Origin: Candidatus Woesearchaeota archaeon
Lineage (GTDB): Archaea; Nanobdellota; Nanobdellia; Woesearchaeales; UBA11576
DNA: 64,000 nucleotides
Direction: 5' to 3'
NCBI GenBank assembly: GCA_018668595.1
Contig: JABJCP010000043.1
Location: 36,490-100,489, forward strand
Each line of letters begins with the position of its first letter. Within the stretch, counting starts at the first letter, position 1. Made by a program: the position numbers and the translations under genes. The notes under the pieces were generated by a model. It was not told where the DNA came from, searched no databases, and saw nothing but the letters and a program-made list of their open reading frames with translations. Of this stretch, positions 2,785 through 44,454 are shown piece by piece.

Positions 2785-4440
2785 ATGAAATTAATTAGTG
2801 TTAAAAATGCAGAAGAAATTGCAGAAGATGGTTGTTCTACTTCAGGATACGAAACAGCTTATGGAGATTATATAAGATTATTTCCACCAGGCAGTCCAAG
2901 AGGAACATTTAATCACATATCAACAGAGGAATTTATTCACAAAACAGTTCCTTTATTTCTAGATGTTCCTTATACTGATATTAATTTCAAGAAAATAAAG
3001 GCAGGAAATCTTAAAAGTAAAATAATAAAATCTGCTGAGAAAAAATTTAAGTGCAAAGATCCATTTGGTGATAATGGAGGACATGAACAATACGAACACG
3101 AAGATTTCTTAACAGAAGGATTAAGAGTAGTTAGAAAATATTTACTTGATCTGGAATTAGATAAAGAAGATATTTTAAACAAATTAATAAGAAACTCCTT
3201 TTCAAATACTGAAGAAATAAATTCAATTGAGAAAACATTTATGGATATGATTGAAAAAGATCTTTTCAAAGTAGACCGTACATGCCACAGTTATGAAACA
3301 TCTGATTCTGTAAACACATCTTGTACTAAAGTCTTGAATTCTCTTGATGAATTTGTTAAAAAATTTATTAAATCAAATAATAATCAATTTGCATTCAAAG
3401 ATTTGCTTTTTAATCAGTTTATTCCTTCTTTTTCAGAATATGGTTCTGTAGCAAGGGGAAATAAAAGCTTAAATCAAATTGCAAATGAAAATGGTTTAGA
3501 TAAATTTGATATAAATAGAACAGAATTTTTTGGTAAAATTTTCTCATCAATTTTAACTACAAATTACACTGAAGAATTAAATCAAAATTTTGAATCTAAA
3601 TTTTCTGAATGGGTAAGAGGTCAATATGGTTTTTGTATCAAAGTCGATGAGCAAGACTACAATCCTGAAAAAATATCTAATTTTGTTATAAACACAAGTG
3701 AAGAAGATATTGAAAAATTAAAAGCAGAAATTGGTAAAGGGTATTTATTTCGCGGAAATATTCAATGGTCCAGTATTATTAGATTTAAAGATGTTCTTAC
3801 TCACGAAACAGTTAGCGACGAAAGGAAAAATAATTTCATAAAAGAAATAGAACGTCCACTAAAATTATTAGAATTGAATCTTATTTTTAGAGATCTTACA
3901 AAAATGTTTAAAGAAGAAAAAAATCCTTTTAAAAAAATTGAAATCTCAAAAAGAAATACAACTGATAAAAATTATATTGAAAACCGCATAATATCAATTG
4001 AACAAGCAGCAGAGTTAAGTTTTGAAGCGCTACTTGAACTAAGACATACTAGAAATTTTGGAATTGGCAATAACCTAATCAATAGAGAACATCCTGGTGC
4101 TTTAGATATTTGTCTAAATTGTTTCGATAGAGTAATGCAAGAATACACTGATTTATATAATGAAAATTCTCAAACCAGTCATTGTACTGCTAAGACGCAC
4201 AACATTGCAAAAATTGTAACATCTCGTGAAAAAATACGCGCTAAGCATATGATTCTTATTGCAAGCGATTTACTTGCAAAAAACAGAAATCAAGAAAATT
4301 TATATTCATCAAAAGAAGCATACACTATTTTATTAGAACAACAAAAAGAAATGAGTTCTTTATCTGGTTCTGTTGAGTATGTAAAAAAATTGACAAAATT
4401 AGTTAGTAAAATTGAAAAAAAGTATTTGAATAAAAGATAA
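2785..4440 (+). CDS. Hypothetical protein (551 aa), no recognisable domain
   Basis: Long uninterrupted ORF. A GGGGG Shine-Dalgarno-like element lies about 8 nt upstream. Divergent from PCNA. Confidence 0.5.
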   Translation: MKLISVKNAEEIAEDGCSTSGYETAYGDYIRLFPPGSPRGTFNHISTEEFIHKTVPLFLDVPYTDINFKKIKAGNLKSKIIKSAEKKFKCKDPFGDNGGHEQYEHEDFLTEGLRVVRKYLLDLELDKEDILNKLIRNSFSNTEEINSIEKTFMDMIEKDLFKVDRTCHSYETSDSVNTSCTKVLNSLDEFVKKFIKSNNNQFAFKDLLFNQFIPSFSEYGSVARGNKSLNQIANENGLDKFDINRTEFFGKIFSSILTTNYTEELNQNFESKFSEWVRGQYGFCIKVDEQDYNPEKISNFVINTSEEDIEKLKAEIGKGYLFRGNIQWSSIIRFKDVLTHETVSDERKNNFIKEIERPLKLLELNLIFRDLTKMFKEEKNPFKKIEISKRNTTDKNYIENRIISIEQAAELSFEALLELRHTRNFGIGNNLINREHPGALDICLNCFDRVMQEYTDLYNENSQTSHCTAKTHNIAKIVTSREKIRAKHMILIASDLLAKNRNQENLYSSKEAYTILLEQQKEMSSLSGSVEYVKKLTKLVSKIEKKYLNKR

Positions 4441-12759: not shown

Positions 12760-13158
12760 ATGATTAAACTTCCAGATAAATTACAAGAAGAACAAGATCA
12801 AATAAAAAATGAATGGGATAAAGTTGAAAATACTTGGAAAGATTACACCAATGAACTAATTCCTCAAGATATTATTTTTGCAAAAAAGATAATTCAATTC
12901 TCAATTAATGTTCTTAATCACATAATAGATAATTATGACGATAATAAAGAAGAAATGAAACAACTTCAAGAATTTATTGCATATTACCCTATTAATTTTT
13001 TCTATGGTCCTATGGGTGATGATTATAATTATCTTGACTTTGACGAAGGTTCGCTTTATTGGATTTTGTTTAAGCTTAGACCTGATGAACTTGTTCCAAA
13101 ATCTAGTTTTGAAGAAGCAAAAGATGCTGCAAAAAACTTATTAAAAGAATTTGATTAA
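12760..13158 (+). CDS. Hypothetical protein
   Basis: 132-aa ORF between the helicase and the PolB-like gene. Confidence 0.35.
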   Translation: MIKLPDKLQEEQDQIKNEWDKVENTWKDYTNELIPQDIIFAKKIIQFSINVLNHIIDNYDDNKEEMKQLQEFIAYYPINFFYGPMGDDYNYLDFDEGSLYWILFKLRPDELVPKSSFEEAKDAAKNLLKEFD

Positions 13159-13179: not shown

Positions 13180-15975
13180 TTATAATTCTAATTTGTTTTC
13201 TAAACTTCTCTTAATATTCACTAAACTTATAATTTTATCTACAACAGAGCAATCTCCTTGATAAAGTTTATTAAGTAAATAATGTCCAGCACTATTTTTT
13301 TTAAAACCACAAAAATAATTTACCAATTTATGAATTGTTCCTTCTCTAATTGATGGACGATCGACTTTTTCGAGATTAAATTCAAATAATTCTCCAGAAC
13401 ATTTATTTTTTTCTTGAGCTTTACGCGATTTATCATATGCTTTAAATTTTTTTAGTAATTGTTTATTTTCATTAGTTACAATACCAAAAAATTTTTCCAT
13501 CATCGCTTCTAAATTATATTCATAACTAATTAAATCTCCTTTTTTTATTTGTTGCTCAGCCATTATTGAAATATATCTTTGTCGTGCGCCTAAAGCATAT
13601 TTATCATAATCTTTTCTTGCTTCTCGTTCATAAGTTAATTCTTCTCGTCGAATTTTTCCTAAACGCAACTGGTTCGCTTTTTTTGCCACATATTCAAGTC
13701 CTACGCGCAAATCACCTTTTAATACAACTTTATCTAAAAAAGATTCATATAATCCTTTTTCAAACTTGCATCGTTCTCCTTTATTAGAATTGTAATCTGC
13801 AATTCCTTGCATCACGAATTGATTTCCTATATTTCCTGCAAAACTTCCTTTATTACCTGACAAAAATACTCCTTCACCTACCACAGAACATAAACCTTTT
13901 GATTCTAGACGACACAATAAATTTTTATCAACATTATCTGATAAAATAAAAGCTTCTTGATTTATATTAATAACATTTCCTTTAAGTAATTTTATTAAAT
14001 CATTCATAACACTAGTAGCCTTACATCTATATTCATCTAAATAATCTCCCTGCATACCTAAACTAAATTCTGCTGCGAATGTTTTTTTACCAATATTTGG
14101 TTTTGCTAATCTAAAAAGCGGATATTCTGCAATTGATTCAAGAGTTCTCATCAATCTTGCTTTTTCTTTAGGATCTCCAGTTAAGAAAGCTTGATTATAT
14201 ATCTTTTTAATATTGTCATCTCGTTCAAGCATATCTTTAAATATACTTGCAAAGGGAAATAGTTCAACCCATACTCCTTTTCTCACTCCTTTTTTTGCGT
14301 CGAGGTTTACATATTTTTTAATCCTTGCAGTAAAATAATCAATCGAGCAAAAATCATCAAAAGTTATTTCATTTTTCTTTGTTCCTAATCCTTTTCTAAC
14401 TTGATCACCCAATCGAATTTTAAGTGAAATTATTTCATCCTTAGGGTATGTATTTTTGTGATCCCAATACCAATTAACCCAATAATCTTCACATAATGTT
14501 TTTTTTGCGGTTGTATCTATTCTTGCAGGTGATGAATGTAATGCTTTTGATTTTAAAATATGTTCATACTTAAGTTGTTCACCAATCATCCAAGATTTCA
14601 TCGAATCTTGTGCTGCATAATATAAAACTTGAAACGCTGCTTCTTTATTTCCTTTTTCTGCCAATGCTGTTTGCACTACAAGTTCGTCATGTGTTAAAGT
14701 TTTTTTAGATTTAATTCCCAGCACATCTTCTAATACAGTGTCTAATTTATTATTGAAATTTTTCATGTAATGTTGAGAATAAGGAGATGGATCAATATCT
14801 AATCTACCTTTCAAAATTATTCGTTTAATAAATCCTCCTGCTGCTTGCACTTCAAGTAATGGCTTAGTTCCTCCCACTCCCACTTTAAAATTCCCAGTAA
14901 GACTTTCGGCTTTATCGTAATCGAATTTTAATTGATTATGCCCATAACAAAAAACAGGTTCTATTTCAGAATATAATGCATTTAATTTCTCGACCAACTC
15001 ATGTTGATCGCAAACATGAATTATTTTAACTTTACGTTTATCAGTATCATCACCAGGAACTGCTACTTCTATTTCATTCATTCCACAATCAAGAGTTGTG
15101 ATTAAAAAATTTTCACCGCTATCTAAACTAATCACTGATGCAGCAGTTAGTCTTTCATTTTTGTTTTTATCAAGAATTTCTTCTATTCCTCTTAGATAAT
15201 CTCTTCTATCCATCCACTTTAAATTTTCTTTATTAAATGTTTCATTGTATGCATCGACTAAATTCAAAAATCTAGAACATAATTTTTCCTCAGGTTCATC
15301 ACGTAATTCTTCTTGTACTCTAACACGTTTCCATTCTTGTGTTTCAAAATCAAGTGCTACACCTTTTACATTTACTAAAATTTTATCAGAAATTAATTCA
15401 TTAGTGAATTCAAAACCGCCATCTCCATCTTCAATCTCTTTTACAATACCAAATGGAAATCCTGCTTGTAATCTTGCTTGTCTTGTTGGACTATTATATC
15501 TATCTCGAATAAATTCTTGTGAAAGAAAAAAGTTTTGTTCATTTTTTTCTAAAAATGGCACTACACAGTGATATGTTTTATACTTTCCTCGTCCAAAAGG
15601 TCCATCTAAGCGCAAGCGCACATCAATGTTTCGCAAAAAATTGTCAATAGCTGTTGATTTTTCTTTTAATTCAGAATGTTTTTTTGTGCCTTCATTAAGC
15701 TTTCCCAGGTCTACTAATGTTTTAAATAATTCTTCTGTATATTGTTCTTGAATAATTTTTTTATAATTTTCAAAACTTTCAAATATTGTTTCTTCTCGTC
15801 TATGTTTTAGTAGCTTGGTAGGAATTTTGTGTTCTATTTTAATTAATTCAAATTTAGGATTTTTCATTTCTCCTGTTTCAGAATCTATTTCCCACAGACA
15901 TGCGTCTACAAGAGATTCTAGTCTTCCTACTAGTGACTGTTTTGGTTTAAGAAATGTCAACCCCTTAGTTACCAT
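13180..15975 (-). CDS. Family-B DNA polymerase-like protein with intact 3'-5' exonuclease motifs and degenerate or absent polymerase motifs
   Basis: 931 aa. Exo I LDFET, Exo II NQLKFDYD (YGHNxxxFD) and Exo III YYAAQD are present in PolB order and spacing. No SLYPS (motif A), no KxxxNSxYG (motif B) and no YGDTDS (motif C) could be found. The only loose candidates are FDDFCSIDYF and ILSDNVD. Confidence 0.55.
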   Translation of the reverse strand: MVTKGLTFLKPKQSLVGRLESLVDACLWEIDSETGEMKNPKFELIKIEHKIPTKLLKHRREETIFESFENYKKIIQEQYTEELFKTLVDLGKLNEGTKKHSELKEKSTAIDNFLRNIDVRLRLDGPFGRGKYKTYHCVVPFLEKNEQNFFLSQEFIRDRYNSPTRQARLQAGFPFGIVKEIEDGDGGFEFTNELISDKILVNVKGVALDFETQEWKRVRVQEELRDEPEEKLCSRFLNLVDAYNETFNKENLKWMDRRDYLRGIEEILDKNKNERLTAASVISLDSGENFLITTLDCGMNEIEVAVPGDDTDKRKVKIIHVCDQHELVEKLNALYSEIEPVFCYGHNQLKFDYDKAESLTGNFKVGVGGTKPLLEVQAAGGFIKRIILKGRLDIDPSPYSQHYMKNFNNKLDTVLEDVLGIKSKKTLTHDELVVQTALAEKGNKEAAFQVLYYAAQDSMKSWMIGEQLKYEHILKSKALHSSPARIDTTAKKTLCEDYWVNWYWDHKNTYPKDEIISLKIRLGDQVRKGLGTKKNEITFDDFCSIDYFTARIKKYVNLDAKKGVRKGVWVELFPFASIFKDMLERDDNIKKIYNQAFLTGDPKEKARLMRTLESIAEYPLFRLAKPNIGKKTFAAEFSLGMQGDYLDEYRCKATSVMNDLIKLLKGNVININQEAFILSDNVDKNLLCRLESKGLCSVVGEGVFLSGNKGSFAGNIGNQFVMQGIADYNSNKGERCKFEKGLYESFLDKVVLKGDLRVGLEYVAKKANQLRLGKIRREELTYEREARKDYDKYALGARQRYISIMAEQQIKKGDLISYEYNLEAMMEKFFGIVTNENKQLLKKFKAYDKSRKAQEKNKCSGELFEFNLEKVDRPSIREGTIHKLVNYFCGFKKNSAGHYLLNKLYQGDCSVVDKIISLVNIKRSLENKLEL

Positions 15976-16000
15976 TTTAAAGTAGGTAAAGACGCAAAGA

Positions 16001-16008
16001 TTTATAAA
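16001..16008. promoter_or_regulatory. Palindromic TATA box TTTATAAA shared by divergent genes
   Basis: Sits about 26 nt upstream of the minus-strand ATG at 15975 (leaderless geometry) and about 69 nt upstream of the plus-strand ATG at 16070 (leader carrying a GGGGG RBS). Confidence 0.4.
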
Positions 16009-16069
16009 CTTATGTGAATTATAATTAATTATAAAAAAAATAAAATGTATAACTTAAGGGGGCGCGTAA

Positions 16070-18535
16070 ATGCAAGAAATTCCACCACACGAAAAAATAT
16101 CTCATTTTTTCCAAAATTTGTATCTTGCAGAGCCATTTCTTTCAGATTATGAATTGTTTGATTCTAATTTATTAATAAAAAAATTAAAAGAAAAAAATGG
16201 ATTATCGGGTCTTTCTACTAAATCCAAAACTAATCCTATGGAAATATTAGAGCAAGGATTTGAAAAAATAAAAAAAGGAAAAGGATTTGGTTCAATTGAA
16301 AAATATAGATGGTATAATAATTACATGTTAAAAGAAATCAGTTTGCCAGATGTTTACAATCCATTTTACGATAAAATCCCTATTTTTGTAAATGGTCTTT
16401 GTGTTACTCAACATAATAAACCAAGAAAAGAAGGAATGGATCCTTATTCTAATACACACAGATTTTCAACATTACTAATTCAAAGCCTAGAACAGTTATT
16501 CCCTCCTGATTTTTTAGAACGATTTTTATTTGTATATGTACAACCAGTTCCTTTTGTTCAAAAAATAACAAAACACAAAGGAAAATTATGTTTAGAAGAT
16601 ATTATCAGACATCCAATAGAACATCATGTTAATAAAAATTTAGCTGAAAAAAAGAAACAAGGCTTTGGTACTTTAATAAAATCAGACGATTCGTCATACA
16701 AAATTGCTAATGCGCATTATGATCCAAAACTTTTTAATTTTAATATGTTTAAAATAGCAAATGCTCAAAATCCTGACTCGAAAACTAGAGAAGCTATGAA
16801 AAGTGGACGATCATTCAACAAATTTTTAGAAATTAAACAAAATGAAATTTATTTCAACAAACAAATAATGGCAATCAAATTTGCTAGATTTCTCGACGCT
16901 ATTTATCCTAATTTAATTAAACTTCATAATGAAATAGGGTTAAATGGTCTACCTATTTATATGGAAAATACTTCTGACAGTGCAAAAATATTGCAATACG
17001 CAACAAAATATTCAAAAACACATATTCTTAATTGTAAGGATAAACCTAATGATAAAACTTCTTTAAGATATTTTAATATAGGTGATGGAATTCTCAATAA
17101 TACTCCTGAACGTATTCCTATTGAAGGAATTGCACACAGCAGCGCGCTCAATAAATTATTTGGTTTTATGCAGGCAATATATTCGAATGTATCAAAAAAT
17201 TATAAACGAAAATCTGTAAAAATAAAAAAACCTGCTAGATTTGAAGTTATAACCTATGATTCAGGTCATCAATTCCCTTGGCTTCTTTTAGAACAAGGTA
17301 CAAAAGGTAAACATCCTAATCTTCATGATTTAGCCAGACAAGTTCTGACAACTCAAGAGCAAAAATTAATTAAAGATTTTGCAGAAGAAAATAGATTAGG
17401 ATTTACTAGAGTAGAACCTGCAATCACCACTCTTTTAAAAACTGATTATTCAATCAATATAAGTCATCCTGCACTTTCAAAATTAAATGGTCGATGGTTT
17501 TCAGAAATTCTTGGGAAAAAAGTTTTAACTCCTGATAAACTACATAGTCCTGATTACAAAATTAATTTTTTTGATATGCCGTCTGTACATCCCGCAGATC
17601 ATAAAGTAACTAGTGACTTTAGAGGTTCTGAATTTTCTCAACCTACTTGCGAATATATAAGCCAAGACTGGCACAACCCAGATCAACTTACAGGTTTTGG
17701 TTGTTCAATTACTAAACTCATAGGTAAGATTGATAGAAATGTGAAAAAGAAACTTATTTTAGAGCAACTAGCACAAGAACCTGAAGAAGTAAGAGATGAA
17801 TTTTTCAAAAATATGACTCCCGATCTAGAATCTATTCCTGCAATTAGAGGTACTGCAATCCATACTTTATTTGCGCATCCAATGAATGAATTAGTTCATT
17901 ATAATACATTAGAATTTGCAGACATTGATCCAGTTCCTTCAGATGTATACACAGAAACAACTTTTTTTCATAAACTAAAATTACAAGCTAGAAATTCAAT
18001 TCAAGAATTTACAGTTTCTATGCATCCTGATTTATATCTGTTTCTAAAAAGAGGCACCGATGAATATGATTTAATTATTGGCGATGTGAAAACTAATCCT
18101 AGAATGGTTGTTCCCGAACATAAATATACTCAGCAAACTGGTTTTTATGGTTGGTTTATTAAACACATTGTAGAAGAAGAGTTAAGAGTTAAAATTCACA
18201 ATATTTATACATTTTTATACAAAACCAATTTTTTTGAGCGTGGCGACGAGCCACAAATAAAATATCCTTCATCATTATTTCGCCCACCAGTTCTTTCAAA
18301 AATAATATTGCATAAACCTGATGATTCAATAATCCAAACCTTGCCTTACATGTTAGCAAACATAATGGAAGAAAAACAAATGTTAAAAGAAGATAAAAAG
18401 TTTTTTGGGCATTATATTAAACATTGTGAAAAAAAGAAATATTGTAAAAAATGTTTTCCTGATTCTAGTCTTGTTTGCAAAAGATTAAGAAATTTAGAAA
18501 GTGAAAATAAAAATATAAATAAATATTTTAATTAA
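16070..18535 (+). CDS. Large hypothetical protein with C-terminal RecB/Cas4-like PD-(D/E)xK nuclease domain and terminal 4-Cys cluster
   Basis: 821 aa. C-terminal HPDLY ... GDVKT ... EHKYTQQTGFY matches the PD, (D/E)xK and QxxxY motifs of RecB-family nucleases. Ends with CEKKKYCKKCFPDSSLVC (C-x5-C-x2-C-x8-C). No Walker motifs. Confidence 0.55.
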   Translation: MQEIPPHEKISHFFQNLYLAEPFLSDYELFDSNLLIKKLKEKNGLSGLSTKSKTNPMEILEQGFEKIKKGKGFGSIEKYRWYNNYMLKEISLPDVYNPFYDKIPIFVNGLCVTQHNKPRKEGMDPYSNTHRFSTLLIQSLEQLFPPDFLERFLFVYVQPVPFVQKITKHKGKLCLEDIIRHPIEHHVNKNLAEKKKQGFGTLIKSDDSSYKIANAHYDPKLFNFNMFKIANAQNPDSKTREAMKSGRSFNKFLEIKQNEIYFNKQIMAIKFARFLDAIYPNLIKLHNEIGLNGLPIYMENTSDSAKILQYATKYSKTHILNCKDKPNDKTSLRYFNIGDGILNNTPERIPIEGIAHSSALNKLFGFMQAIYSNVSKNYKRKSVKIKKPARFEVITYDSGHQFPWLLLEQGTKGKHPNLHDLARQVLTTQEQKLIKDFAEENRLGFTRVEPAITTLLKTDYSINISHPALSKLNGRWFSEILGKKVLTPDKLHSPDYKINFFDMPSVHPADHKVTSDFRGSEFSQPTCEYISQDWHNPDQLTGFGCSITKLIGKIDRNVKKKLILEQLAQEPEEVRDEFFKNMTPDLESIPAIRGTAIHTLFAHPMNELVHYNTLEFADIDPVPSDVYTETTFFHKLKLQARNSIQEFTVSMHPDLYLFLKRGTDEYDLIIGDVKTNPRMVVPEHKYTQQTGFYGWFIKHIVEEELRVKIHNIYTFLYKTNFFERGDEPQIKYPSSLFRPPVLSKIILHKPDDSIIQTLPYMLANIMEEKQMLKEDKKFFGHYIKHCEKKKYCKKCFPDSSLVCKRLRNLESENKNINKYFN

Positions 18536-30330: not shown

Positions 30331-31695
30331 ATGGATGAAAAAAACGAGGTGCAATTAGACTCTATTGAATCTAATTTATTAGCCGAGCTTGAAAAAAAGA
30401 GCAGTGAACTTTCTCAAAACAATTCATTCTTAGCAGAAAAACTCAAAGAAACAGAATGTACTATTTCTTCATTCAATACTGAACTTGCAAAACTTAAAAA
30501 TGTTAAAGACGCGTTAACCCAAAAAGATATTATTATTACAAAATTAAATAAGAAAATAGAAATTATGTCTTATGCGCAAAAACAACTCGAGTTTGATGCT
30601 CTTGATTTAAATGAACAGGTAACAAAAAAATCAGAATCACTTGATTTTTCTGAATCAAAACTTGTTGAGCGTAATAAAATTATTGAAGACCTAAAGAGCA
30701 AAATTAGTATTCTTTCGTTTGCACAAAAACAACTTGAATCTGAAGTTCTTGATATAAAATCTCAATTAGATAAATCTGTTGCAAATCTTGAGTTTAATAA
30801 AGATGAAATTGTAAACAAAGAATTGGAAGTTACTGAACTTAGCGGACAAATAAAGCACCAATCAGATGCAATTAATCGACTAGAGTCTGAAAGTGCACAT
30901 TTTAGAAATCATGTTGAATTATTAACATCTAAATTACATATTAAAGAAGAGGATTTTAATAAATTTGCTGATGATCTTGCAGAGTCTAGAAAAAAAGTTG
31001 CTTTACTAAATACTACATTAATAAAAAAATCTCAGGAGTTTGAAGCAAAAGAAACAAATTTAACTCAAACATTAAATCAAACAAAAGAAAATCAAGAAGT
31101 TTATGTTAAACGGTTAATTTCTCAATACACTTTAAAAATTATTTCTCTTAAAAATCAGATGGAAAAAATGGACAAACTAATATCTATTAAAAATGGAACT
31201 ATTCAAAATCAAAAAGTTAAAGCTAATAACATAATGTCTGATTTGAATTCTAGGTTCAAAGATCTGATGAGTTCCGAAGATGCAGCAACACTTAATGGAT
31301 TTGAATCTGAAATTACCAGTTCTGATTCTAATGATTTTGAATATGAACTAGATTCAGACTCAATAAATAGTTCAGACGTAAAAGAAGACTCAATACCTGC
31401 CGCAAACTTAGACACAAACAGCAGTTCATTTGATTCGTTTAAACAAGAACTAGTATATGAAGATCAGTCAGAAGAAGCAGCAGTGGAAGAAGAAGAATTA
31501 CTTGTTGATCCATACCAAGAAATTCAAGATCCTTATTCATCTGCTCCAATGCCAAACATTGACGATATTGTACCTATGATTCAAATTGCAATCCAACATG
31601 GAGATCAAGAAATGAGCATAGTTAAGTCTTTAACTAATTCAGGTATTCCAAAAAAAGCAGTTGATTTAGCATTCGAAAAAATAAGACAAGAATAA
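30331..31695 (+). CDS. Long coiled-coil protein with acidic C-terminus
   Basis: Heptad-rich Q/E/K/L composition across about 300 aa, acidic S/D/E tail. 454 aa. Confidence 0.45.
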   Translation: MDEKNEVQLDSIESNLLAELEKKSSELSQNNSFLAEKLKETECTISSFNTELAKLKNVKDALTQKDIIITKLNKKIEIMSYAQKQLEFDALDLNEQVTKKSESLDFSESKLVERNKIIEDLKSKISILSFAQKQLESEVLDIKSQLDKSVANLEFNKDEIVNKELEVTELSGQIKHQSDAINRLESESAHFRNHVELLTSKLHIKEEDFNKFADDLAESRKKVALLNTTLIKKSQEFEAKETNLTQTLNQTKENQEVYVKRLISQYTLKIISLKNQMEKMDKLISIKNGTIQNQKVKANNIMSDLNSRFKDLMSSEDAATLNGFESEITSSDSNDFEYELDSDSINSSDVKEDSIPAANLDTNSSSFDSFKQELVYEDQSEEAAVEEEELLVDPYQEIQDPYSSAPMPNIDDIVPMIQIAIQHGDQEMSIVKSLTNSGIPKKAVDLAFEKIRQE

Positions 31696-35308: not shown

Positions 35309-37021
35309 TTATGCTGGTTTACCTACCATAGATCCCATTGAACCTGTTGATTCTGATTGGCTTTCGCTCTCTGAACTTGCAGGTAATGTCACGGTTGTTG
35401 AACTAGTTTTTTTTGTTTTTTGTTTTGCACACCAAACATAATCTTTTTTACTATCATCATTATCTTTAGGTCGTACATCTAATTTGTATTCTTTTTGAGT
35501 TCCATATTCATATTCTATTTCTGCTAAAATTAAAACATCATTAGGTTCGTTAGGAAGACGTAAAACTTTTTTTGGATCTAAAATTTCTAAGTGACAAGAA
35601 GGCATTGATTTTTGAAGAGTATGTTCTAATTCATAAAATTCATATTTTTCAGGATTATTCAAATACAACACATTTCTTCCATTTTCTTCTTTTGCAGTCC
35701 ATCCTGAACAAAAATCAACTTGTACACCCCCTATCTGATTAGGTTTTGCAACACCAAATCCGTCTGGAATTACAACTTTTAGTGCATGTACTGTATCTAC
35801 TGTTCCTTCGACCATGTTTTCTACACTTACTTGTATTTTTAATTTTTTAGATGCTATTTGATTATTTTGAGATCCAATACCTCCAAAGCTTCCTGTTCCT
35901 GTATCAATTCCTATTAAAGGCATTTTTTCTGTTTGTATTATTAATTTAATTGGAGCTTTATCTGATTCAGATATTCCGTCGAGGTGCGCCACTTCAGGAT
36001 ACATATCTTTCAATGCTGCAATTACTTCATTTTCATTATCTAAAGTTAATTCTTTATCTCGAGCATATACTTTGAGTTTTTCTTCTAAAAAGTTTTTTTC
36101 AATATATGCATTTTGTAATTCTGCTCTTGTTACAAATCCTTCTGATAGTGCAGTAAAATATACTAAATATGCTTCTGGACAAGTAATATTTTGAGGATAG
36201 CAAGTTATTTCTTCGTCAAAATTTGATGCTGCAGTTATTACTTCAGGAAATACAGGTGAAACTGTTGCGTCGTCTAATCTTTGAAAAGTTCCTGGTGATT
36301 TTTTAAAAATTGATCTTCTAACCACGTGACAAGTAACCATCGTTACTATATCTTCATCATATCCAAATCCATGAACTCTTGATCTAAACTCGATAGATTC
36401 GCGAGAATCAATATCTATAGGAGAGGGTATAAAATATTTTGCGGGATTTGGTGTCCAAGGATTTAACCATTCAACTCCTACAAATTCTTTTGTTTTTGTT
36501 TGTTTTCCTTCAACATAATCTCCTTTGTATATTTGTTCATTTTTTTTCCAACTGAGTTTAAAATTATCAATTAATTTTGATAAAGCGTTTTTACCCCCAT
36601 ACGTTACATCATCTGCTGCAGCTCCAACATCTCCTCCTTGATATTTTGCAATTGCAGCCTGTGCAATTGTAGGGCCTGTAAAATAAAATGCTAATCCGAA
36701 TATTGCAATAATAATTAATGCTTTGAAAAATACACCCATCCAATCTTTAGGACTTTTTTGATCTGGTGAAGGTTCTTCTATAACTACTTTAGGTTCGGGT
36801 TGGGATGATTGAGTAGAATTAATTGGTTCAGCAGAAAATGGCGATTGTTGAACTGGTTGTTGAACTGGTTGTTGAGGATTTGGTTGTTGAAAAGAATTAC
36901 CTAAATTAATAGATCCTTGTGAATTTACAGAGGGATTAATGTTAGGAGAAAGAGGGTTTATTGGAGCTAATCCTTTCTTCCCTAAATTATTAAACTTAAT
37001 ATCATCCACCTCTTTTTTCAA
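35309..37021 (-). CDS. Type-II membrane protein with Q/P-rich cytoplasmic N-terminus and large ectodomain
   Basis: QQPVQQPVQQ low-complexity region, then a single TM (ALIIIAIFGLAFYF), then about 450 aa of extracytoplasmic domain with an S/E/T-rich tail. Confidence 0.5.
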   Translation of the reverse strand: MKKEVDDIKFNNLGKKGLAPINPLSPNINPSVNSQGSINLGNSFQQPNPQQPVQQPVQQSPFSAEPINSTQSSQPEPKVVIEEPSPDQKSPKDWMGVFFKALIIIAIFGLAFYFTGPTIAQAAIAKYQGGDVGAAADDVTYGGKNALSKLIDNFKLSWKKNEQIYKGDYVEGKQTKTKEFVGVEWLNPWTPNPAKYFIPSPIDIDSRESIEFRSRVHGFGYDEDIVTMVTCHVVRRSIFKKSPGTFQRLDDATVSPVFPEVITAASNFDEEITCYPQNITCPEAYLVYFTALSEGFVTRAELQNAYIEKNFLEEKLKVYARDKELTLDNENEVIAALKDMYPEVAHLDGISESDKAPIKLIIQTEKMPLIGIDTGTGSFGGIGSQNNQIASKKLKIQVSVENMVEGTVDTVHALKVVIPDGFGVAKPNQIGGVQVDFCSGWTAKEENGRNVLYLNNPEKYEFYELEHTLQKSMPSCHLEILDPKKVLRLPNEPNDVLILAEIEYEYGTQKEYKLDVRPKDNDDSKKDYVWCAKQKTKKTSSTTVTLPASSESESQSESTGSMGSMVGKPA

Positions 37022-37152: not shown

Positions 37153-38403
37153 TCAATTATCTCTATATACTTCTAATTCAACAATTTGCAATATTTCGTC
37201 AGGAATTATTTTTATCGCATTATTTCCTTCAATTAAATAATCATTGATCTTCTTTTTGTAAACTCTATCTCTTTGATATATATTTGTTTCAACACCATTA
37301 ATATTTATTCTACCTTCTTTTTGTTCATTGTCATCAACAAATGTTATTTTTAGATATATATCATCAGAATCATCTTCAACATCATCAAATTCATCTTCGT
37401 CAAGATCAAAAAAGTATACTGGCTGTACAATTTCTTTTAGTTCACTCTTGATTTTTATTAGCTCGACTATGTAATTTCCTTTTTCTGTTTTAAATACTAT
37501 TTGATTTTCACCATTACGCAAAATATCTGGTGCAAACTCTACACCCAATGCATATCCACAATCAGGTATTGCTTCATAAACTAAATGATTATTTACTAGT
37601 GCTTGTAATTTTCCAGTCACTCCTAATTCACACTGAGGTGTGAAAATTAATCGTCCTCTTTTTAGATTATTTTTTTCAGTTGCGCTAACAATAAATATGT
37701 TTTTGCTTTGTTGTTGAGTTATGTCTGTTATGTCTCCCGTGATTTGTAAATTTTCAAGTGTGTGTTTGTTTACTTTCCAAAACTGCCACCCAACTGATTC
37801 TGTAAAAAACTCTAATTTATTTGCTCCTTGAGCTACATATTTTTTTGGAACCACAACAGGATCTGGATTTTCTTTTGTAATTTCTTGATTAAATATATCT
37901 TTTCCATTTAGTGTTATTCGCATATTCCCCTCGTGTATTTTAGATACAAAGGTTAATAACAAATTTTCTGTATGGGTTAAATCTTGAATAACAAATGTGA
38001 ACTCAGCACTTGTATCTGAAAACCAACTTTTTTTAGCAGTCAAGCTGCTTTGAGTATCTAATACTTGAGCATCTTGTGTAGCAAATATTGTTAATGCAGG
38101 AATACTGTGAGTTATTTCTTTAGTTGACAATGAAGTTAATGTTCCTGGATTTTCAAGTAATAATGTTTTATTGGATCCTGAATCAGAATCTGAATCAGAA
38201 TCTGTTGAATTTCCTTCTAGAATTTCTTGCCTCACATGAGGTGGAATAAACAGTAAGTAAAATATGATCAACAGTGCAATTACTGCAACTAATGTTGCGG
38301 CTTTTGTTCCATCTTGTGCTTTTCTGCTTATTAAAAACATAGATTTAGATCTGCAATTAGATCTACAATTAGAATTTCCTGATTTTTTTATTCGTGCCAT
38401 CAA
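37153..38403 (-). CDS. Type-II membrane protein with DSDSDSDSGS linker and large ectodomain
   Basis: Basic N-terminus with an NCRSNCRS repeat, single TM (LVAVIALLIIFYLLF), acidic repeat, about 330-aa ectodomain. Confidence 0.5.
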   Translation of the reverse strand: MMARIKKSGNSNCRSNCRSKSMFLISRKAQDGTKAATLVAVIALLIIFYLLFIPPHVRQEILEGNSTDSDSDSDSGSNKTLLLENPGTLTSLSTKEITHSIPALTIFATQDAQVLDTQSSLTAKKSWFSDTSAEFTFVIQDLTHTENLLLTFVSKIHEGNMRITLNGKDIFNQEITKENPDPVVVPKKYVAQGANKLEFFTESVGWQFWKVNKHTLENLQITGDITDITQQQSKNIFIVSATEKNNLKRGRLIFTPQCELGVTGKLQALVNNHLVYEAIPDCGYALGVEFAPDILRNGENQIVFKTEKGNYIVELIKIKSELKEIVQPVYFFDLDEDEFDDVEDDSDDIYLKITFVDDNEQKEGRININGVETNIYQRDRVYKKKINDYLIEGNNAIKIIPDEILQIVELEVYRDN

Positions 38404-42435: not shown

Positions 42436-44454
42436 TTAGCCTGTAGCATGCTTTGCTTTTAATTCTTCTGCTTTTGCATGTTCCTCTGCTTTTTTTGCTT
42501 GCTCAGTAGCTTTTTGTGCTTTTTTCTCGAACTTTAAAACTTGATCTCCTTTTTTAATTTCTGCTTTTATTGTTGCTTGAAATGCTTTTTTGATTCTATG
42601 TATTACATTTTCTCGACTGTGTTTTGTATAACGAAGATCTTTAACTAAAACATTTAAGTGTTTTTTCACGTCTTCAATTCCTTTCTTTAGTTCTTCATAT
42701 GCTGCTTTTACTTTAAACTGAATAGTAATTGATTTTCGAGCTGCAATATTTGTTTCTTTCTCTTCAAGATTTTCTTCTTCAAATATTTTCATTAATTGTT
42801 TTCTTGACTGCGCATTTTGAGTAATTATTGCTCCTGTTTTTGTTATGTCTTTGTATGCTTCAGCCAAACTCGAATAAACTTTATTTAAATATTTTGCAGC
42901 TCTAGCGAGAAAAAATATCTTATTAACAACTCCTGCACTTTCAGTTATTATTGGTTGAATTTCTTTTTGATTAAAATTAACAGCTAATTCTAATATTTTA
43001 ATAACCTCATCAAGAATTAATGATGCGTCATCAGTCAATTGAACTAATATTGCGTCCGGTATCTCTTCTTTGAAATCCTTAAAGTTTTTACGATAAGTTT
43101 TATGTTGTTTAGTTAACTTCAAATCATGTTTTTTGAATTTGTGTTCAAATTTAGTGAACCTATCAGAAACAGCATCTAATTTTTTTTCTACATGAAAAAT
43201 ATCTTTTATTGATTTGTTATGTAATTTCCAAATGCGTTCTAATCTTTTAATTACTAAATCAAGTTTAGTTCTTATTTTTTCAAATTTTTTCTGTTCTTCT
43301 TTAAGTTGATTTATTCGACGATGAACTCCAGACATTTCAGAATTACTATCTTTAGAATGTGATTTGATTTTTTCGAGTTTTTTTTCTTCAGACTTTATCT
43401 CATTTTCTAATGATTCTACTTCTTGATTTGTAACTTTTTTGATATGTTCAAATTTACTTTTCCGTTCTTTTAGCATCCTACATTCTTTTGCAGCTTCGCC
43501 TACAATATCCATCACTTTCAAAATAATATCCATTGCTTTTTCCCTATACTTTTCAGCATATTCTCGATTAGAAATTAAAACATCAAAATCTTTTAACATT
43601 TGTTTTGCAAACTTCAAAAGGGGTTCACGCCTTTCATCATCTAATCCTTCTGGACCAACATGTTCTAATTGTTTTTCTATCCATTTTGCTTTTTGTCCAA
43701 GCACATTAAGAATTTTAATATCTCTTTCTTCTAAAGAAATTTCTCCTTTTTCTAATTGCTCTACAGTTTGACTTATTTTCTTTGCACCAGCAGCCATTGC
43801 TTCTTCGTGAGTTAATAATTCTAAATTTTCTGCTTCTCTTCTAGCAAGTAATCCTTTAAGCCGTTCTGCACCTTTAACCACTTTGTCTTTTGATTTTTCT
43901 TTGATTTTTCCAGCATGTTCAAAATACCTAATCAACTTTCTTGTGCGACGTGGTTTAAATCCTTCTTCTTTACTTAAATTACGCGCAGCATGTGAACCTA
44001 ATCGTTTTAGTTTATTTCTTCGCAACGCTACAAAATATAATCCTGCAAATCCTCCAACAGTAATTGCAAGAGTAACAAAATCAAATGAAACTAAAGAACA
44101 TAAAAACCAAATTACTAAAATTATAGGGAACACTCCTCGTTTAATTCCTCGTCGAATCTTACCAATAACAACAACTGAAAGTGCGACAATAGAAAACCAA
44201 GATAATACATAAAGATTTAAACCATAAAGTATGGCAAAACATAATATAGCAACTACTGTATATGCAGGTATTCCTTTTTTATCTTCTGTTTTTGCAGACA
44301 AAAATATCATCACAACACAAGCAATTACTATAGCCCATAAAATTGAAGAATTAATTAATCCTCCTTCACCAAGTTTTTCTAGTCCTTGCATTATTGAACC
44401 GCCAGGACCAAATATTCCTGCTACTGATCTTTGTAATTCGAGAGGTATTGCCAA
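42436..44454 (-). CDS. Polytopic membrane protein with long K/E-rich coiled-coil C-terminal region
   Basis: At least four TM segments in the first 150 aa, then about 500 aa of heptad-rich sequence. Confidence 0.45.
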   Translation of the reverse strand: MAIPLELQRSVAGIFGPGGSIMQGLEKLGEGGLINSSILWAIVIACVVMIFLSAKTEDKKGIPAYTVVAILCFAILYGLNLYVLSWFSIVALSVVVIGKIRRGIKRGVFPIILVIWFLCSLVSFDFVTLAITVGGFAGLYFVALRRNKLKRLGSHAARNLSKEEGFKPRRTRKLIRYFEHAGKIKEKSKDKVVKGAERLKGLLARREAENLELLTHEEAMAAGAKKISQTVEQLEKGEISLEERDIKILNVLGQKAKWIEKQLEHVGPEGLDDERREPLLKFAKQMLKDFDVLISNREYAEKYREKAMDIILKVMDIVGEAAKECRMLKERKSKFEHIKKVTNQEVESLENEIKSEEKKLEKIKSHSKDSNSEMSGVHRRINQLKEEQKKFEKIRTKLDLVIKRLERIWKLHNKSIKDIFHVEKKLDAVSDRFTKFEHKFKKHDLKLTKQHKTYRKNFKDFKEEIPDAILVQLTDDASLILDEVIKILELAVNFNQKEIQPIITESAGVVNKIFFLARAAKYLNKVYSSLAEAYKDITKTGAIITQNAQSRKQLMKIFEEENLEEKETNIAARKSITIQFKVKAAYEELKKGIEDVKKHLNVLVKDLRYTKHSRENVIHRIKKAFQATIKAEIKKGDQVLKFEKKAQKATEQAKKAEEHAKAEELKAKHATG

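What the first reader, a model, noticed from the sequence alone, without database searches (positions are those of the whole stretch)
13180..15975. PolB-like protein with intact exonuclease motifs but no recognisable polymerase catalytic motifs
The three DEDDy motifs (LDFET, NxxxFDYD, YxxxD) occur in canonical PolB order and spacing. Searching the 931-aa product I find no DxxSLYPS, no KxxxNSxYG and no YGDTDS. The best candidates are FDDFCSIDYF and ILSDNVD. Archaea are known to carry inactivated PolB paralogs, but in those both exo and pol residues are typically degenerate. Here the exonuclease site looks competent. This could be a stand-alone proofreading or processing exonuclease built on a PolB scaffold, or a highly divergent polymerase.
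Basis: partly seen in the sequence, partly recalled or inferred. Interest (0 to 1): 0.7.

Follow-up and report, generated by a model that had tools for sequence, protein, structure and literature searches.

The report
Exonuclease-only PolB paired with nuclease
This gene encodes a family B DNA polymerase relative that has kept a perfectly conserved proofreading exonuclease site but lost the conserved polymerase residues, and in a group of tiny DPANN archaea it nearly always sits beside a previously undescribed Cas4-like nuclease gene, which suggests an unrecognised DNA-trimming machine.

Summary
ORF 13180-15975(-) encodes a 931-aa protein whose AlphaFold model matches full-length archaeal PolB (Foldseek E 7e-21). 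A family profile hits Pfu/KOD PolB at E 2.5e-29.

Exhaustive search finds 212 clusters (50% identity). Where named, they are Woesearchaeota/Nanoarchaeia, all annotated 'hypothetical'.

In 127 full-length members the DEDDy residues are essentially invariant: D209, E211, Y453 and D457 in 127/127, D352 in 126/127. No column between residues 458 and 726 (palm and fingers) reaches 60% Asp+Glu. Motifs A, B and C are degenerate, and 0 of 45 diverse members match Pfam DNA_pol_B.

New findings:
- In all 16 distinct loci with readable upstream DNA, the gene lies next to an about 730-950-aa protein (window 16070-18535,+), usually divergently and 46-104 bp away.
- That partner has a Cas4/AddB/Dna2-type Fe-S PD-(D/E)xK nuclease domain with an intact active site, plus an about 520-aa N-terminal domain with no detectable relatives.
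- A quarter of the PolB-like proteins end in a clamp-binding-like QxxLF. The window protein does not.

Best reading: a polymerase-dead PolB kept as a DNA-bound 3'-5' exonuclease that works with a 5'-end nuclease in replication-associated DNA processing or repair. I found no description of it. I rate it a new variant of a known kind.

The parts
13180..15975 (-). PolB-like gene, 931 aa. It has the full family B polymerase fold, an intact 3'-5' exonuclease site and a degenerate polymerase site.
   Evidence: The ORF is listed. The AlphaFold2 model has pLDDT 83.6 and pTM 0.83. Foldseek against the PDB gives E 7e-21 over about 910 columns to Thermococcales PolB. hhalign of the family against KOD gives probability 99.7% and E 1.4e-24.
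15376..15975 (-). N-terminal domain, residues 1-200. It carries a long helical-hairpin insertion (residues 61-120, coordinates 15616-15795) that KOD PolB lacks.
   Evidence: Secondary structure of the model. In the hhalign alignment this stretch is largely gapped against KOD.
14536..15375 (-). DEDDy 3'-5' exonuclease domain, residues 201-480.
   Evidence: The family profile aligns Pfu PolB residues 180-378 here, domain E 2.7e-21. There is a weak Pfam DNA_pol_B_exo1 hit.
15340..15357 (-). ExoI motif ALDFET (residues 207-212). The catalytic residues are D209 and E211.
   Evidence: D209 and E211 are each 127/127 in the family and invariant in alignment A4.
14914..14943 (-). ExoII motif GHNQLKFDYD (residues 345-354). 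Key residues are N347, F351 and D352.
   Evidence: N347 is 116/127, position 351 is F or Y in 125/127, and D352 is 126/127. The motif aligns to YNGDSFDF of Pfu PolB.
14605..14619 (-). ExoIII motif YAAQD (residues 453-457). Key residues are Y453 and D457.
   Evidence: Both residues are 127/127. The motif aligns to YSMED of Pfu and KOD.
13876..14535 (-). Palm and fingers, residues 481-700. The fold is retained but there is no conserved catalytic carboxylate.
   Evidence: No column with 60% or more D+E lies between residues 458 and 726. This stretch is not alignable to PolB by HMM. hhalign of the palm alone is not significant, E 0.13.
14239..14289 (-). Motif A remnant in the favoured register: the central palm strand and following helix, GVRKGVWVELFPFASIF (residues 563-579). 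The KOD D404 position falls on L572/F573.
   Evidence: The model shows a 10-residue strand at 563-572 with pLDDT above 90. The family consensus G-x-[FY]-E-G-H-[LV]-[VI]-Y-L-T-P-F resembles G..V.E...G.W..IVYLDF of PolB. Column 573 is T43/F22/A12.
14320..14370 (-). Alternative motif A register: EITFDDFCSIDYFTARI (residues 536-552).
   Evidence: The local match DFCSI versus DFRSL and the collinear spacing to KOD support it. Column 541 is only D51/E18/N15/K14/G6 of 127, and it is K, N or A in close orthologues. Columns 535-538 are gaps in more than half of the family.
13939..13974 (-). Motif C hairpin remnant VININQEAFILS (residues 668-679). It corresponds to KOD VIYSDTDGFFAT, with D540 replaced by N672 and D542 by E674.
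   Evidence: The model has a beta hairpin at 668-672 and 675-679. hhalign pairs this hairpin with KOD's DTD segment, though with a register shifted by two residues from the ungapped sequence match used here. Column 672 is S/G/N. Column 674 is N24/K16/R15/E11/D11. N670 is 117/127.
13486..13875 (-). Thumb, residues 701-830. It includes a KxY-like LSGNKGSFAG (705-714) and GIADYNSNKGERCKFEK (724-740).
   Evidence: The profile aligns Pfu residues 599-676 here, domain E 7e-5. Basic residues are kept: position 732 is K/R in 91/127 and position 735 in 108/127.
15976..16069 (.). 94-bp AT-rich spacer between the two divergently transcribed genes; a shared promoter region is presumed.
   Evidence: The sequence is shown. 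The equivalent spacer is 46-104 bp in the other loci for which gene calls were retrieved, counting one locus (L018) where the two genes are co-directional.
16070..18535 (+). Conserved partner gene, 821 aa, with no Pfam family.
   Evidence: It is adjacent to the PolB-like gene in 16 of 16 distinct loci with upstream DNA. It shares 37-38% identity with the L001 and L002 partners.
16070..17629 (+). Partner N-terminal domain, about 520 aa, of unknown fold. Conserved residues include D124, E408, D420, E449, K471, W476, K483 and R518.
17687..18484 (+). Partner C-terminal domain (residues about 540-805): a Cas4/AddB/Dna2-type PD-(D/E)xK nuclease with a four-cysteine Fe-S cluster site.

Best explanation
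**What it is.** The gene encodes a family B DNA polymerase derivative that no longer polymerises. It has been kept, under strong selection, as a 3'-5' (DEDDy) exonuclease mounted on the PolB DNA-binding scaffold of N-terminal domain, palm, fingers and thumb.

**Partner.** It works as a two-gene module with the divergently transcribed neighbour (16070-18535). That neighbour's C-terminal domain is an Fe-S-cluster Cas4/AddB/Dna2-type nuclease. Such enzymes typically thread and cut 5' single-stranded ends.

**Proposed mechanism.**
1. The dead polymerase cleft and thumb hold a duplex or primer-template junction. In many orthologues the protein is tethered to PCNA through a C-terminal QxxLF peptide.
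2. The 3' end is fed to the exonuclease site.
3. The partner trims the 5' strand or flap.
4. Together they clean up ends, flaps or mismatched termini during replication-associated repair in Nanoarchaeia (Woesearchaeota-type DPANN archaea).

**Shown:**
- the PolB fold
- the invariant exonuclease site
- the non-conserved polymerase site
- the conserved gene pairing
- the nuclease fold and intact active site of the partner
- the enrichment of the C-terminal motif

**Inferred:**
- exonuclease activity
- physical interaction of the two proteins
- PCNA binding
- the substrates and the cellular process
For: **PolB fold**
- The model has pLDDT 83.6.
- Foldseek matches archaeal PolB full length at E 7e-21.
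- The family profile hits Pfu PolB at E 2.5e-29, with collinear exonuclease and thumb matches.
- hhalign against KOD gives probability 99.7%. The KOD sequence was verified against PDB 1WNS.

**Exonuclease site**
- D209, E211, D352, Y453 and D457 are invariant in 126-127 of 127 members that share only 17-49% identity.
- They are the only invariant columns in alignment A4.

**Polymerase site**
- No column with 60% or more D+E lies between residues 458 and 726.
- Motifs A, B and C are absent by regular expression in 153 members.
- 0 of 45 members hit Pfam DNA_pol_B.
- The candidate ligand positions 541 and 674 are both acidic in 14 of 127 members, against 12 expected if they were independent.
- Close orthologues carry K, N, A, G or R at these positions.

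**Scaffold still under selection**
- Mean conservation of palm and fingers is 0.33, of thumb 0.36 and of the exonuclease domain 0.38.
- Basic thumb residues are kept.

**Gene pairing**
- The partner is adjacent in 16 of 16 distinct loci with upstream DNA, down to about 20% identity of the PolB-like protein.
- The other flanking genes differ between loci, and the downstream gene is not conserved.

**Partner nuclease**
- The catalytic residues are 20/20 and the four cysteines 19/20.

**Link to the clamp and replication**
- QxxLF lies within the last 12 residues in 32 of 127 members. Shuffled tails give a mean of 0.34 and a maximum of 4.
- A PCNA gene is adjacent to the partner in L016 and 5.7 kb away in L017. 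RFC is 2.6 kb away in L018.

**Chromosomal, not mobile**
- The neighbours are housekeeping genes.
- There are no relatives in viral contigs.
- There are no PADLOC or PHROG hits.
Against: - No biochemical data exist for any member.
- The tools return no coordinates, so placement of residues in the 3D active site rests on secondary structure and sequence anchors. The motif A register is ambiguous between two solutions.
- The window protein has Asp541 and Glu674, which in one register coincide with KOD D404 and D542.
- PolB2 (Dpo2) was also predicted inactive and later proved to be a working translesion-synthesis extender (PMC8764526).
- The window protein itself lacks the QxxLF tail.
- PCNA or RFC proximity is seen in only 3 of 16 loci.
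- One distant member (the contig of P0102) shows no large partner next to it; it has a Toprim protein and a separate 271-aa Cas4/Dna2-like gene 6 kb away.
- Interaction between the two proteins is inferred from gene order only.
- The function of the partner's 520-aa N-terminal domain is unknown and could change the picture.
Confidence: 0.6

Rival explanations
1. It is a trans-acting proofreading subunit for a separate polymerase. That polymerase is either a canonical one encoded elsewhere or a new activity in the partner's N-terminal domain. This would be analogous to DnaQ with Pol III alpha, or DP1 with DP2.
For: - The DEDDy site is invariant on a primer-template-binding scaffold.
- A clamp-binding-like C-terminal tail is present in a quarter of members.
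- The gene is paired almost without exception with a large protein whose 520-aa N-terminal domain has conserved carboxylates (D124, E408, D420, E449) and no known fold.
Against: - Nothing in the partner's N-terminal domain resembles any polymerase, primase or nucleotidyltransferase fold or motif.
- The recognisable partner domain is a nuclease, not a polymerase.
- Kazlauskas et al. place two PolB groups, B7 and (one sequence) B9, in Woesearchaeota. B7 nests within the E. coli Pol II-type group G1, whose exonuclease site is reported as conserved (PMC7544198; PMC12926913). The need for an extra proofreader is therefore not evident.
Confidence: 0.14
2. It is a highly divergent but still active DNA polymerase that uses non-canonical or relocated catalytic residues, as turned out to be the case for PolB2 (Dpo2) and for primer-independent PolBs.
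For: - The complete palm, fingers and thumb fold is retained and conserved about as well as the exonuclease domain.
- The window protein has D541 and E674 at possible metal-ligand positions.
- A KxY-like segment and a clamp-binding-like tail are typical of polymerases.
- There is a precedent of a wrongly predicted inactive PolB2 (PMC8764526; PMC7544198).
Against: - No carboxylate is conserved anywhere in palm or fingers across 127 members.
- The candidate positions are K, N, A, G or R in orthologues from the same gene pair, and they show no co-occurrence.
- The motif B Lys/Asn/Tyr residues are absent in any register.
- The palm and fingers are undetectable by HMM or hhalign, whereas the exonuclease domain and thumb are detected.
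Confidence: 0.08
3. It is a DNA-degrading pair used for nucleotide salvage. DPANN archaea generally lack nucleotide biosynthesis, and a 3'-5' plus a 5'-3' nuclease could reduce acquired DNA to mononucleotides.
For: - Two predicted nucleases of opposite polarity are encoded together.
- The family is restricted to reduced-genome Nanoarchaeia.
- That DPANN depend on scavenged nucleotides is general knowledge and was not tested here.
Against: - A full primer-template-binding scaffold and a clamp-binding-like tail are unnecessary for bulk degradation.
- PCNA and RFC neighbours occur in some loci.
Confidence: 0.07
4. It is a purely structural, catalytically silent replisome scaffold like the C-terminal half of Pol epsilon.
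For: There is a precedent of inactivated PolB modules kept as scaffolds (PMC2669801). The polymerase site here is degenerate.
Against: All five DEDDy residues are invariant across a family whose mean column identity is 18%. That pattern is expected only if catalysis is selected. In the Pol epsilon C-terminal half and in PolB2 these residues are lost (PMC2669801, PMC7544198).
Confidence: 0.04
5. It is part of a mobile element or an anti-virus defence system.
For: Cas4-family nucleases and odd PolBs are common in mobile elements and defence islands. One locus (L003) has an FHA-caspase gene and a SWIM gene nearby.
Against: - There are no PADLOC or PHROG hits.
- There are no relatives in 2.9 million viral contigs.
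- No integrase, cas or capsid genes occur in any locus.
- The neighbours are housekeeping genes: aminoacyl-tRNA synthetases, PAN, MCM and EF-1alpha.
- Composition shows no shift across the genes.
Confidence: 0.04

Closest known systems
Archaeal family B replicative polymerases of the Thermococcales type (Pfu, KOD, Tgo, 9°N; the PolB3 group in the nomenclature of Makarova et al. 2014, an assignment made from memory)
   Same: It has the same overall fold and domain order. Foldseek gives E 7e-21 over about 910 columns, the profile gives E 2.5e-29 and hhalign gives 99.7%. The ExoI, ExoII and ExoIII motifs are identical in kind, and the thumb region is recognisable.
   Different: Motifs A, B and C are not conserved and there is no conserved carboxylate in the palm. 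There is no Pfam DNA_pol_B match. It has an extra helical hairpin in the N-terminal domain and an almost invariable nuclease partner gene.
PolB2, the 'inactivated' archaeal PolB family (Rogozin 2008; Makarova 2014; Kazlauskas 2020)
   Same: It is an archaeal PolB paralogue with departures from the canonical active sites, encoded with conserved partner genes.
   Different: The pattern is the reverse. [quoted passage not shown] Here the exonuclease site is invariant and the polymerase site is lost. PolB2's partners are an inactivated RadA and an uncharacterised protein (PMC4104785), not a Cas4-like nuclease.
C-terminal half of eukaryotic Pol epsilon, and other inactivated PolB modules (poxvirus F12, helicase-PolB fusions of polinton-like viruses)
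   Same: The PolB fold is kept after loss of polymerase catalysis.
   Different: Those modules have lost the exonuclease residues too and act as scaffolds (PMC2669801, PMC4304020, PMC5499653). This family keeps every exonuclease residue.
Prokaryotic PolX proteins with an inactivated polymerase site but an active PHP 3'-5' exonuclease
   Same: The evolutionary logic is the same. Selection preserves the exonuclease of a polymerase while the polymerase site decays (PMC12926913, section on the X family).
   Different: They belong to a different polymerase family with a different exonuclease fold (PHP rather than DEDDy). They occur in bacteria, and no conserved nuclease partner is reported.
Cas4 / AddB / AdnAB / Dna2 / Exo5 Fe-S PD-(D/E)xK nucleases (for the partner protein)
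   Different: There are no cas genes nearby, no helicase domain and no P-loop. The nuclease is fused to a 520-aa N-terminal domain with no detectable relatives. Sequence similarity is below Pfam thresholds.

Membership tests
Family B DNA polymerase (structural superfamily) | Collinear N-terminal domain, DEDDy exonuclease, palm, fingers and thumb fold | tested here: met
   Foldseek matches archaeal PolB full length. The profile matches exonuclease and thumb collinearly. hhalign against KOD gives 99.7%.
Family B DNA polymerase (active enzyme) | Motif A DxxSLYPS with the catalytic Asp | tested here: not met
   The regular expression is absent in 153 members. In either register the position is not a conserved carboxylate: column 573 is T/F/A and column 541 is D in 40%.
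Family B DNA polymerase (active enzyme) | Motif C (Y)xDTD with the catalytic Asp pair | tested here: not met
   The hairpin at 668-679 reads VININQEAFILS. Column 672 is S/G/N, and column 674 is acidic in 22 of 127 members.
Family B DNA polymerase (active enzyme) | Motif B KxxxNSxYG in the fingers | tested here: not met
   No conserved K...N pair exists in any register across columns 599-626. The regular expression is absent.
Family B DNA polymerase (active enzyme) | Match to the Pfam DNA_pol_B (PF00136) polymerase-domain model | tested here: not met
   There is no hit for the window protein at E up to 10. 0 of 45 diverse members hit at E 0.01 or better, and 0 of 10 distant members.
Family B DNA polymerase (active enzyme) | Catalytic carboxylates placed at the palm metal sites in 3D | not testable with these tools
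   The structure tools return no coordinates or residue-level superposition, so only secondary structure and sequence anchors were available.
DnaQ-like DEDDy 3'-5' exonuclease (the PolB proofreading domain) | ExoI DxE, ExoII Nx3(F/Y)D and ExoIII Yx3D, in order | tested here: met
   D209, E211, N347, F351, D352, Y453 and D457 are present. The five catalytic residues are 126-127 of 127. The motifs align to Pfu and KOD.
PolB2 (inactivated archaeal PolB) | Degenerate ExoI and missing ExoIII; a single motif C Asp plus a D(K/R) motif; an operon with inactivated RadA | tested here: not met
   The exonuclease motifs are intact. There is no conserved motif C Asp. The neighbours differ. The PolB2 features are taken from PMC7544198 and PMC4104785.
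Clamp (PCNA)-binding replication or repair proteins | C-terminal PIP-like peptide (Qxx[LIM]... or QxxLF) | tested here: inconclusive
   32 of 127 family members have QxxLF in the last 12 residues, against 0.34 expected. The window protein ends ...SLENKLEL and lacks it. Binding was not tested.
Cas4/RecB-family Fe-S PD-(D/E)xK nuclease (partner protein) | PD-(D/E)xK fold with D, D/ExK and QxxxY motifs and a four-cysteine cluster | tested here: met
CRISPR-associated Cas4 (partner protein) | Encoded with cas1/cas2 or a CRISPR array | tested here: not met
   No cas genes appear in any gene list of the loci. There are no Rfam hits in the window.
Dna2 / AddB (partner protein) | SF1 helicase or helicase-like domain joined to the nuclease | tested here: not met

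The most novel reading that the evidence does not exclude
The PolB-derived exonuclease and its partner form a two-subunit enzyme of a new type. In it the partner's 520-aa N-terminal domain, which has no detectable relatives in the PDB or in 5.8 billion proteins, supplies a new catalytic activity on DNA, such as a polymerase, primase or ligase of unknown fold. The PolB relic proofreads or positions the 3' end on PCNA. This would be a lineage-specific replication or repair synthesis machine in Nanoarchaeia, analogous in logic to DP1-DP2.
Probability: 0.07. Interest if true: 0.9.

Novelty: new variant of a known kind. Interest (0 to 1): 0.62.

Why it matters
All degenerate family B polymerases described so far have lost the exonuclease site, alone or together with the polymerase site. 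Examples are Pol alpha, Pol zeta, PolB2, the C-terminal half of Pol epsilon and poxvirus F12.

This family shows the opposite outcome. A replicative polymerase scaffold has been recycled as a dedicated 3'-5' exonuclease, and it is conserved across a whole archaeal class.

It is coupled to a new Cas4-like nuclease whose large extra domain has no known relatives.

It adds a component to the poorly understood DNA replication and repair apparatus of DPANN archaea. It also gives a clean natural experiment on what the non-catalytic parts of a PolB do, such as DNA and clamp binding. The two abundant 'hypothetical' proteins it identifies can be tested with simple nuclease and primer-extension assays.

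Tried and rejected

- The 45-sequence alignment A4 was too diverse for the locus finder, so A1 was used instead.
- The afdb50 fold library was unavailable.
- Viral contigs held no relatives.
- PADLOC and PHROGs gave no usable hits.
- The accession of the one older member, RLE45733, is in neither the supplements of the 2020 PolB survey that were held as text nor any searchable paper. Literature searches found no description of the family.

**Partner N-terminal domain**
- A profile search of the 5.8-billion-protein set returned only the 8 clusters already known.

**Motif A register**
- I first placed motif A at 563-579, then at 536-552 using KOD anchors. Returning to the family consensus and the model's long central strand, I again favour 563-579.
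- hhalign of the palm alone is not significant (E 0.13), so the register stays unresolved. The conclusion does not depend on it.

**Ideas rejected**
- The small gene downstream (12760-13158) is not part of the module; it is not conserved in other loci.
- No canonical PolB lies in the window or in the fetched flanks; phmmer with KOD finds nothing.

**Not possible**
- tRNA and Rfam scans of the window were empty.

Full report
**1. The observation**

The ORF at 13180-15975 on the minus strand is real: ATG start, 931 aa. The window has 26-32% G+C throughout, with no compositional break at the gene.

- ALDFET at 207-212
- NQLKFDYD at 347-354
- YAAQD at 453-457
- FDDFCSIDYF at 539-548
- ILSDNVD at 677-683

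On its own the protein is barely recognisable.
- Pfam gives only DNA_pol_B_exo1 at E 9e-4, below the curated cut-off, and no DNA_pol_B.
- NCBIfam and PDB sequence searches give marginal hits to the exonuclease region of E. coli Pol II.

**2. It has the full PolB fold**

- Ten homologues were found (E 2e-244 to 2e-107, 32-45% identity). All are unnamed, 'hypothetical', or in one case carry an unrelated automatic JGI label; the named ones are from Candidatus Woesearchaeota MAGs.
- With their alignment (A1), AlphaFold2 gives a confident model with pLDDT 83.6 and pTM 0.83.
- Foldseek against the PDB returns only family B polymerases. The best are the Thermococcales enzymes, at E 7e-21 to 1e-17 over about 900 alignment columns and 12-14% identity.
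- A profile of 45 diverse members (A4) hits Pfu and KOD PolB at E 2.5e-29. It makes two collinear matches: the exonuclease domain with the first palm helices (Pfu 180-378) and the thumb (Pfu 599-676). It makes no match to the palm core or the fingers.
- hhalign of 127 family members against KOD PolB gives probability 99.7% and E 1.4e-24.
- The palm and fingers segment alone is not significantly similar to KOD (E 0.13).

**3. Size and spread of the family**

- An exhaustive HMM search of 1.84 billion cluster representatives finds 212 proteins at E 1e-3 or better, 179 at 1e-10 and 77 at 1e-30. They fall into several subfamilies sharing 17-49% identity with the window protein.
- Where a name exists, it is Woesearchaeota or Nanoarchaeia.
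- Eleven loci were found among GTDB species representatives. Seven are labelled Woesearchaeota. Four are MAGs labelled 'uncultured Methanosarcinales', which I suspect is a placeholder label.
- No relative was found in 2.9 million viral contigs.
- Neither protein hits PADLOC, and there is no meaningful PHROGs hit.
- The window is ordinary archaeal chromosome. It encodes a DEAD-box helicase, the PAN ATPase, PheRS alpha and beta, a class I Trp/Tyr-type aminoacyl-tRNA synthetase, acetate kinase, and an MCM gene interrupted by an intein.

**4. Exonuclease site versus polymerase site**

The exonuclease site, in 127 full-length members:

| Residue | Conservation |
|---|---|
| D209 | 127/127 |
| E211 | 127/127 |
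| N347 | 116/127 |
| Position 351 (F or Y) | 125/127 |
| D352 | 126/127 |
| Y453 | 127/127 |
| D457 | 127/127 |

In A4, whose mean column identity is 18%, the only invariant columns are Met1 and exactly the five DEDDy residues.

The polymerase site is the opposite.
- No alignment column between residues 458 and 726 reaches 60% Asp+Glu.
- Regular expressions for motifs A, B and C fail in 153 members, apart from one stray YADTD.
- Of 45 members, 0 hit Pfam DNA_pol_B and 7 hit the exonuclease model.

*Motif C.* The motif C hairpin is easy to place from the model (strands 668-672 and 675-679). It also matches KOD without gaps: VININQEAFILS against VIYSDTDGFFAT.
- D540 becomes N672. The family column is S/G/N.
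- D542 becomes E674. The family column is N24, K16, R15, E11, D11.
- Y538 becomes the nearly invariant N670. The hhalign alignment pairs the same hairpin with KOD's DTD segment but shifts the register by two residues, at negligible confidence.

*Motif A.* I could not fix the register.
- The long, confident central strand 563-572, followed by PF, and the family consensus (G-x-[FY]-E-G-H-[LV]-[VI]-Y-L-T-P-F) resemble GG.V.E...G.W..IVYLDF. This register puts Thr, Phe or Ala at the Asp position.
- Column 541, however, is D in only 51 of 127 members (E18, N15, K14, G6). It is K, N or A in close orthologues (P0005, P0007, P0010). Column 674 is G or R in others.
- Acidic residues at both 541 and 674 co-occur in 14 of 127 members, against 12 expected by chance.

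*Motif B.* It has no conserved Lys...Asn pair in any register.

*Consequence.* The window protein happens to carry D541 and E674, but the family does not select for them. The palm, fingers and thumb are nevertheless conserved about as well as the exonuclease domain (0.33, 0.36 and 0.38). Basic thumb residues persist, with position 735 being K or R in 108 of 127 members. The scaffold is therefore still used, most simply for binding DNA.

**5. The conserved partner**

*Gene order.* The gene upstream on the other strand (16070-18535, 821 aa, no Pfam family) is the homologue of the gene in the same position in every locus I could read.
- It is there in the window and in eleven other distinct close loci, by gene calls and tblastn.
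- It is also there in more distant subfamilies: L016 (hhalign 98.8%, E 8e-17), L017 (E 2.6e-48), L018 (same strand, E 2.4e-15) and L019 (split into two ORFs).
- That makes 16 of 16 distinct loci, down to about 20% identity of the PolB-like protein.
- In the loci for which gene calls were retrieved the spacer is 46-104 bp.
- The other neighbours differ from locus to locus, and the downstream gene is not conserved.
- The only apparent exception is a contig for which no DNA was available. There the neighbours are a Toprim protein and a DUF87 ATPase, and a 271-aa Cas4/Dna2-like gene lies 6 kb away.

*Structure of the partner.* The partner's model (pLDDT 78.9) matches Fe-S PD-(D/E)xK nucleases over its C-terminal third.
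- Foldseek agrees weakly.
- In 20 homologues H598, E629, D654, D672, K674, Q689 and Y693 are invariant.
- C545, C792, C795 and C803 are 19/20. L004 clearly lacks C545, C792 and C795 in the printed alignment and is very probably the one homologue that lacks all four.
- The N-terminal 520 residues have conserved residues (D124, E408, D420, E449, K471, W476, K483, R518) but no convincing match anywhere.

**6. A link to the sliding clamp**

- Thirty-two of the 127 PolB-like proteins carry QxxLF within their last 12 residues, and 24 carry it at the very end. Many read QL[SDNEK]LF.
- Shuffled tails give a mean of 0.34 and never more than 4.
- hhalign places this tail on the PIP box of KOD (QVGLSAWL). 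From memory, it also resembles the bacterial clamp-binding QL[SD]LF found at the end of E. coli Pol II.
- The window protein lacks the motif.
- A PCNA gene is adjacent to the partner in L016 and 5.7 kb away in L017. An RFC subunit gene is 2.6 kb away in L018. This is anecdotal support only.

**7. Interpretation**

*Most likely.* The protein is a polymerase-dead PolB kept as a DNA-structure-directed 3'-5' exonuclease. It works with a 5'-end-processing Fe-S nuclease, and in many lineages it is probably recruited by PCNA.
- The exonuclease and nuclease activities are inferred from intact active sites.
- The partnership is inferred from strictly conserved gene adjacency.
- The cellular role (end, flap or mismatch processing during replication-coupled repair) is inferred from the enzyme types, the clamp motif and occasional replication-gene neighbours.

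*Rivals.*
- A trans-proofreader for another polymerase, possibly an activity hidden in the partner's unknown domain.
- A still-active aberrant polymerase, following the PolB2 (Dpo2) precedent (PMC8764526).
- Bulk DNA degradation for nucleotide salvage.
- A silent scaffold.
- A mobile or defence element.

The last two are poorly compatible with the invariant DEDDy site and with the chromosomal, virus-free distribution.

**8. Comparison with what is known**

- Known degenerate PolBs lose the exonuclease site, or both sites.
[quoted passage not shown] Its catalytic centres of both domains are disrupted, and it sits in an operon with an inactivated RadA (PMC4104785).
  - The C-terminal half of Pol epsilon has lost both (PMC2669801).
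  - Poxvirus F12 (PMC4304020) and polinton-like helicase-PolB fusions (PMC5499653) are further examples.
- The 2020 survey of PolB diversity lists groups B7 and B9 in Woesearchaeota but no exonuclease-only group. The one member then public (RLE45733) is not in the supplements held as text.
- The nearest analogy is in another family: bacterial PolX proteins whose polymerase site decayed while the PHP exonuclease stayed conserved (PMC12926913).
- I found no paper describing this family or the partner.
- I therefore class it as a new variant of a known kind. It belongs to the PolB superfamily by fold and exonuclease domain. It is not a member of the active polymerases, because three defining motifs were tested and not met.

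**9. Limits**

- No coordinates were available, so the 3D position of candidate carboxylates was not checked directly.
- I could not survey the same genomes for canonical PolB or PolD.
- No interaction prediction was possible.
- All functional statements await biochemistry.

Noticed in passing
window 57523-60873 (+): This is a 1116-aa MCM helicase gene interrupted by an intein with a LAGLIDADG homing-endonuclease domain. The MCM P-loop domain is split at about residues 385 and 826.
   Followed up: no
C-termini of family members (e.g. P0005, P0010, P0049, P0051, P0104, P0110); window 13183-13218: A C-terminal QxxLF peptide, often QL[SDNEK]LF, is strongly enriched in the family: 32 of 127 against 0.34 expected. 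It resembles both the archaeal PIP box and the bacterial beta-clamp motif. The window protein ends ...SLENKLEL and lacks it.
   Followed up: partly
L004:7766-9952 (-): This partner orthologue lacks at least three of the four Fe-S cluster cysteines (C545, C792, C795) and very probably the fourth, while keeping the nuclease catalytic residues. The apparent loss of the cluster ligands together supports their shared role and suggests the cluster is dispensable in some lineages.
   Followed up: partly
L019:5581-7943 (-): In this contig the partner is split into two ORFs of 344 and 416 aa. Other genes are fragmented too (GatB in three pieces). Either the assembly has frameshift errors or the genome is decaying.
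   Followed up: no
L016:4630-5367; L017:15823-16560; L018:8742-9710: PCNA genes lie next to the module in L016 and 5.7 kb from it in L017. An RFC small-subunit gene lies 2.6 kb from it in L018.
   Followed up: partly
contig of P0102 (JGI 3300072015; no DNA held): This distant family member has no large partner beside it. It has a Toprim protein and a DUF87 ATPase upstream, a separate 271-aa Cas4/Dna2/PDDEXK gene 6 kb away, and topoisomerase VI genes downstream. The module architecture may be split here.
   Followed up: no
L009, L010, L012, L015: These four GTDB-representative MAG contigs carry the gene pair but are titled 'uncultured Methanosarcinales archaeon'. Their G+C is 34-42%, and the gene pair is otherwise known only from Woesearchaeota and Nanoarchaeia. 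The label is probably a submission placeholder.
   Followed up: no
window 42436-44454 (-), 2785-4440 (+), 35309-37021 (-), 30331-31695 (+), 37153-38403 (-): Five large ORFs (672, 551, 570, 454 and 416 aa) have no Pfam family at the thresholds used.
   Followed up: no
window 1-64000: No tRNA gene (ARAGORN) and no Rfam family at gathering threshold was found in 64 kb of otherwise gene-dense chromosome.
   Followed up: no
window 15616-15795 (-), residues 61-120 of the PolB-like protein: A long two-helix hairpin is inserted in the N-terminal domain and is absent from KOD PolB. It gives a spurious weak spectrin-repeat Pfam hit. It could be an interaction surface for the partner.
   Followed up: no
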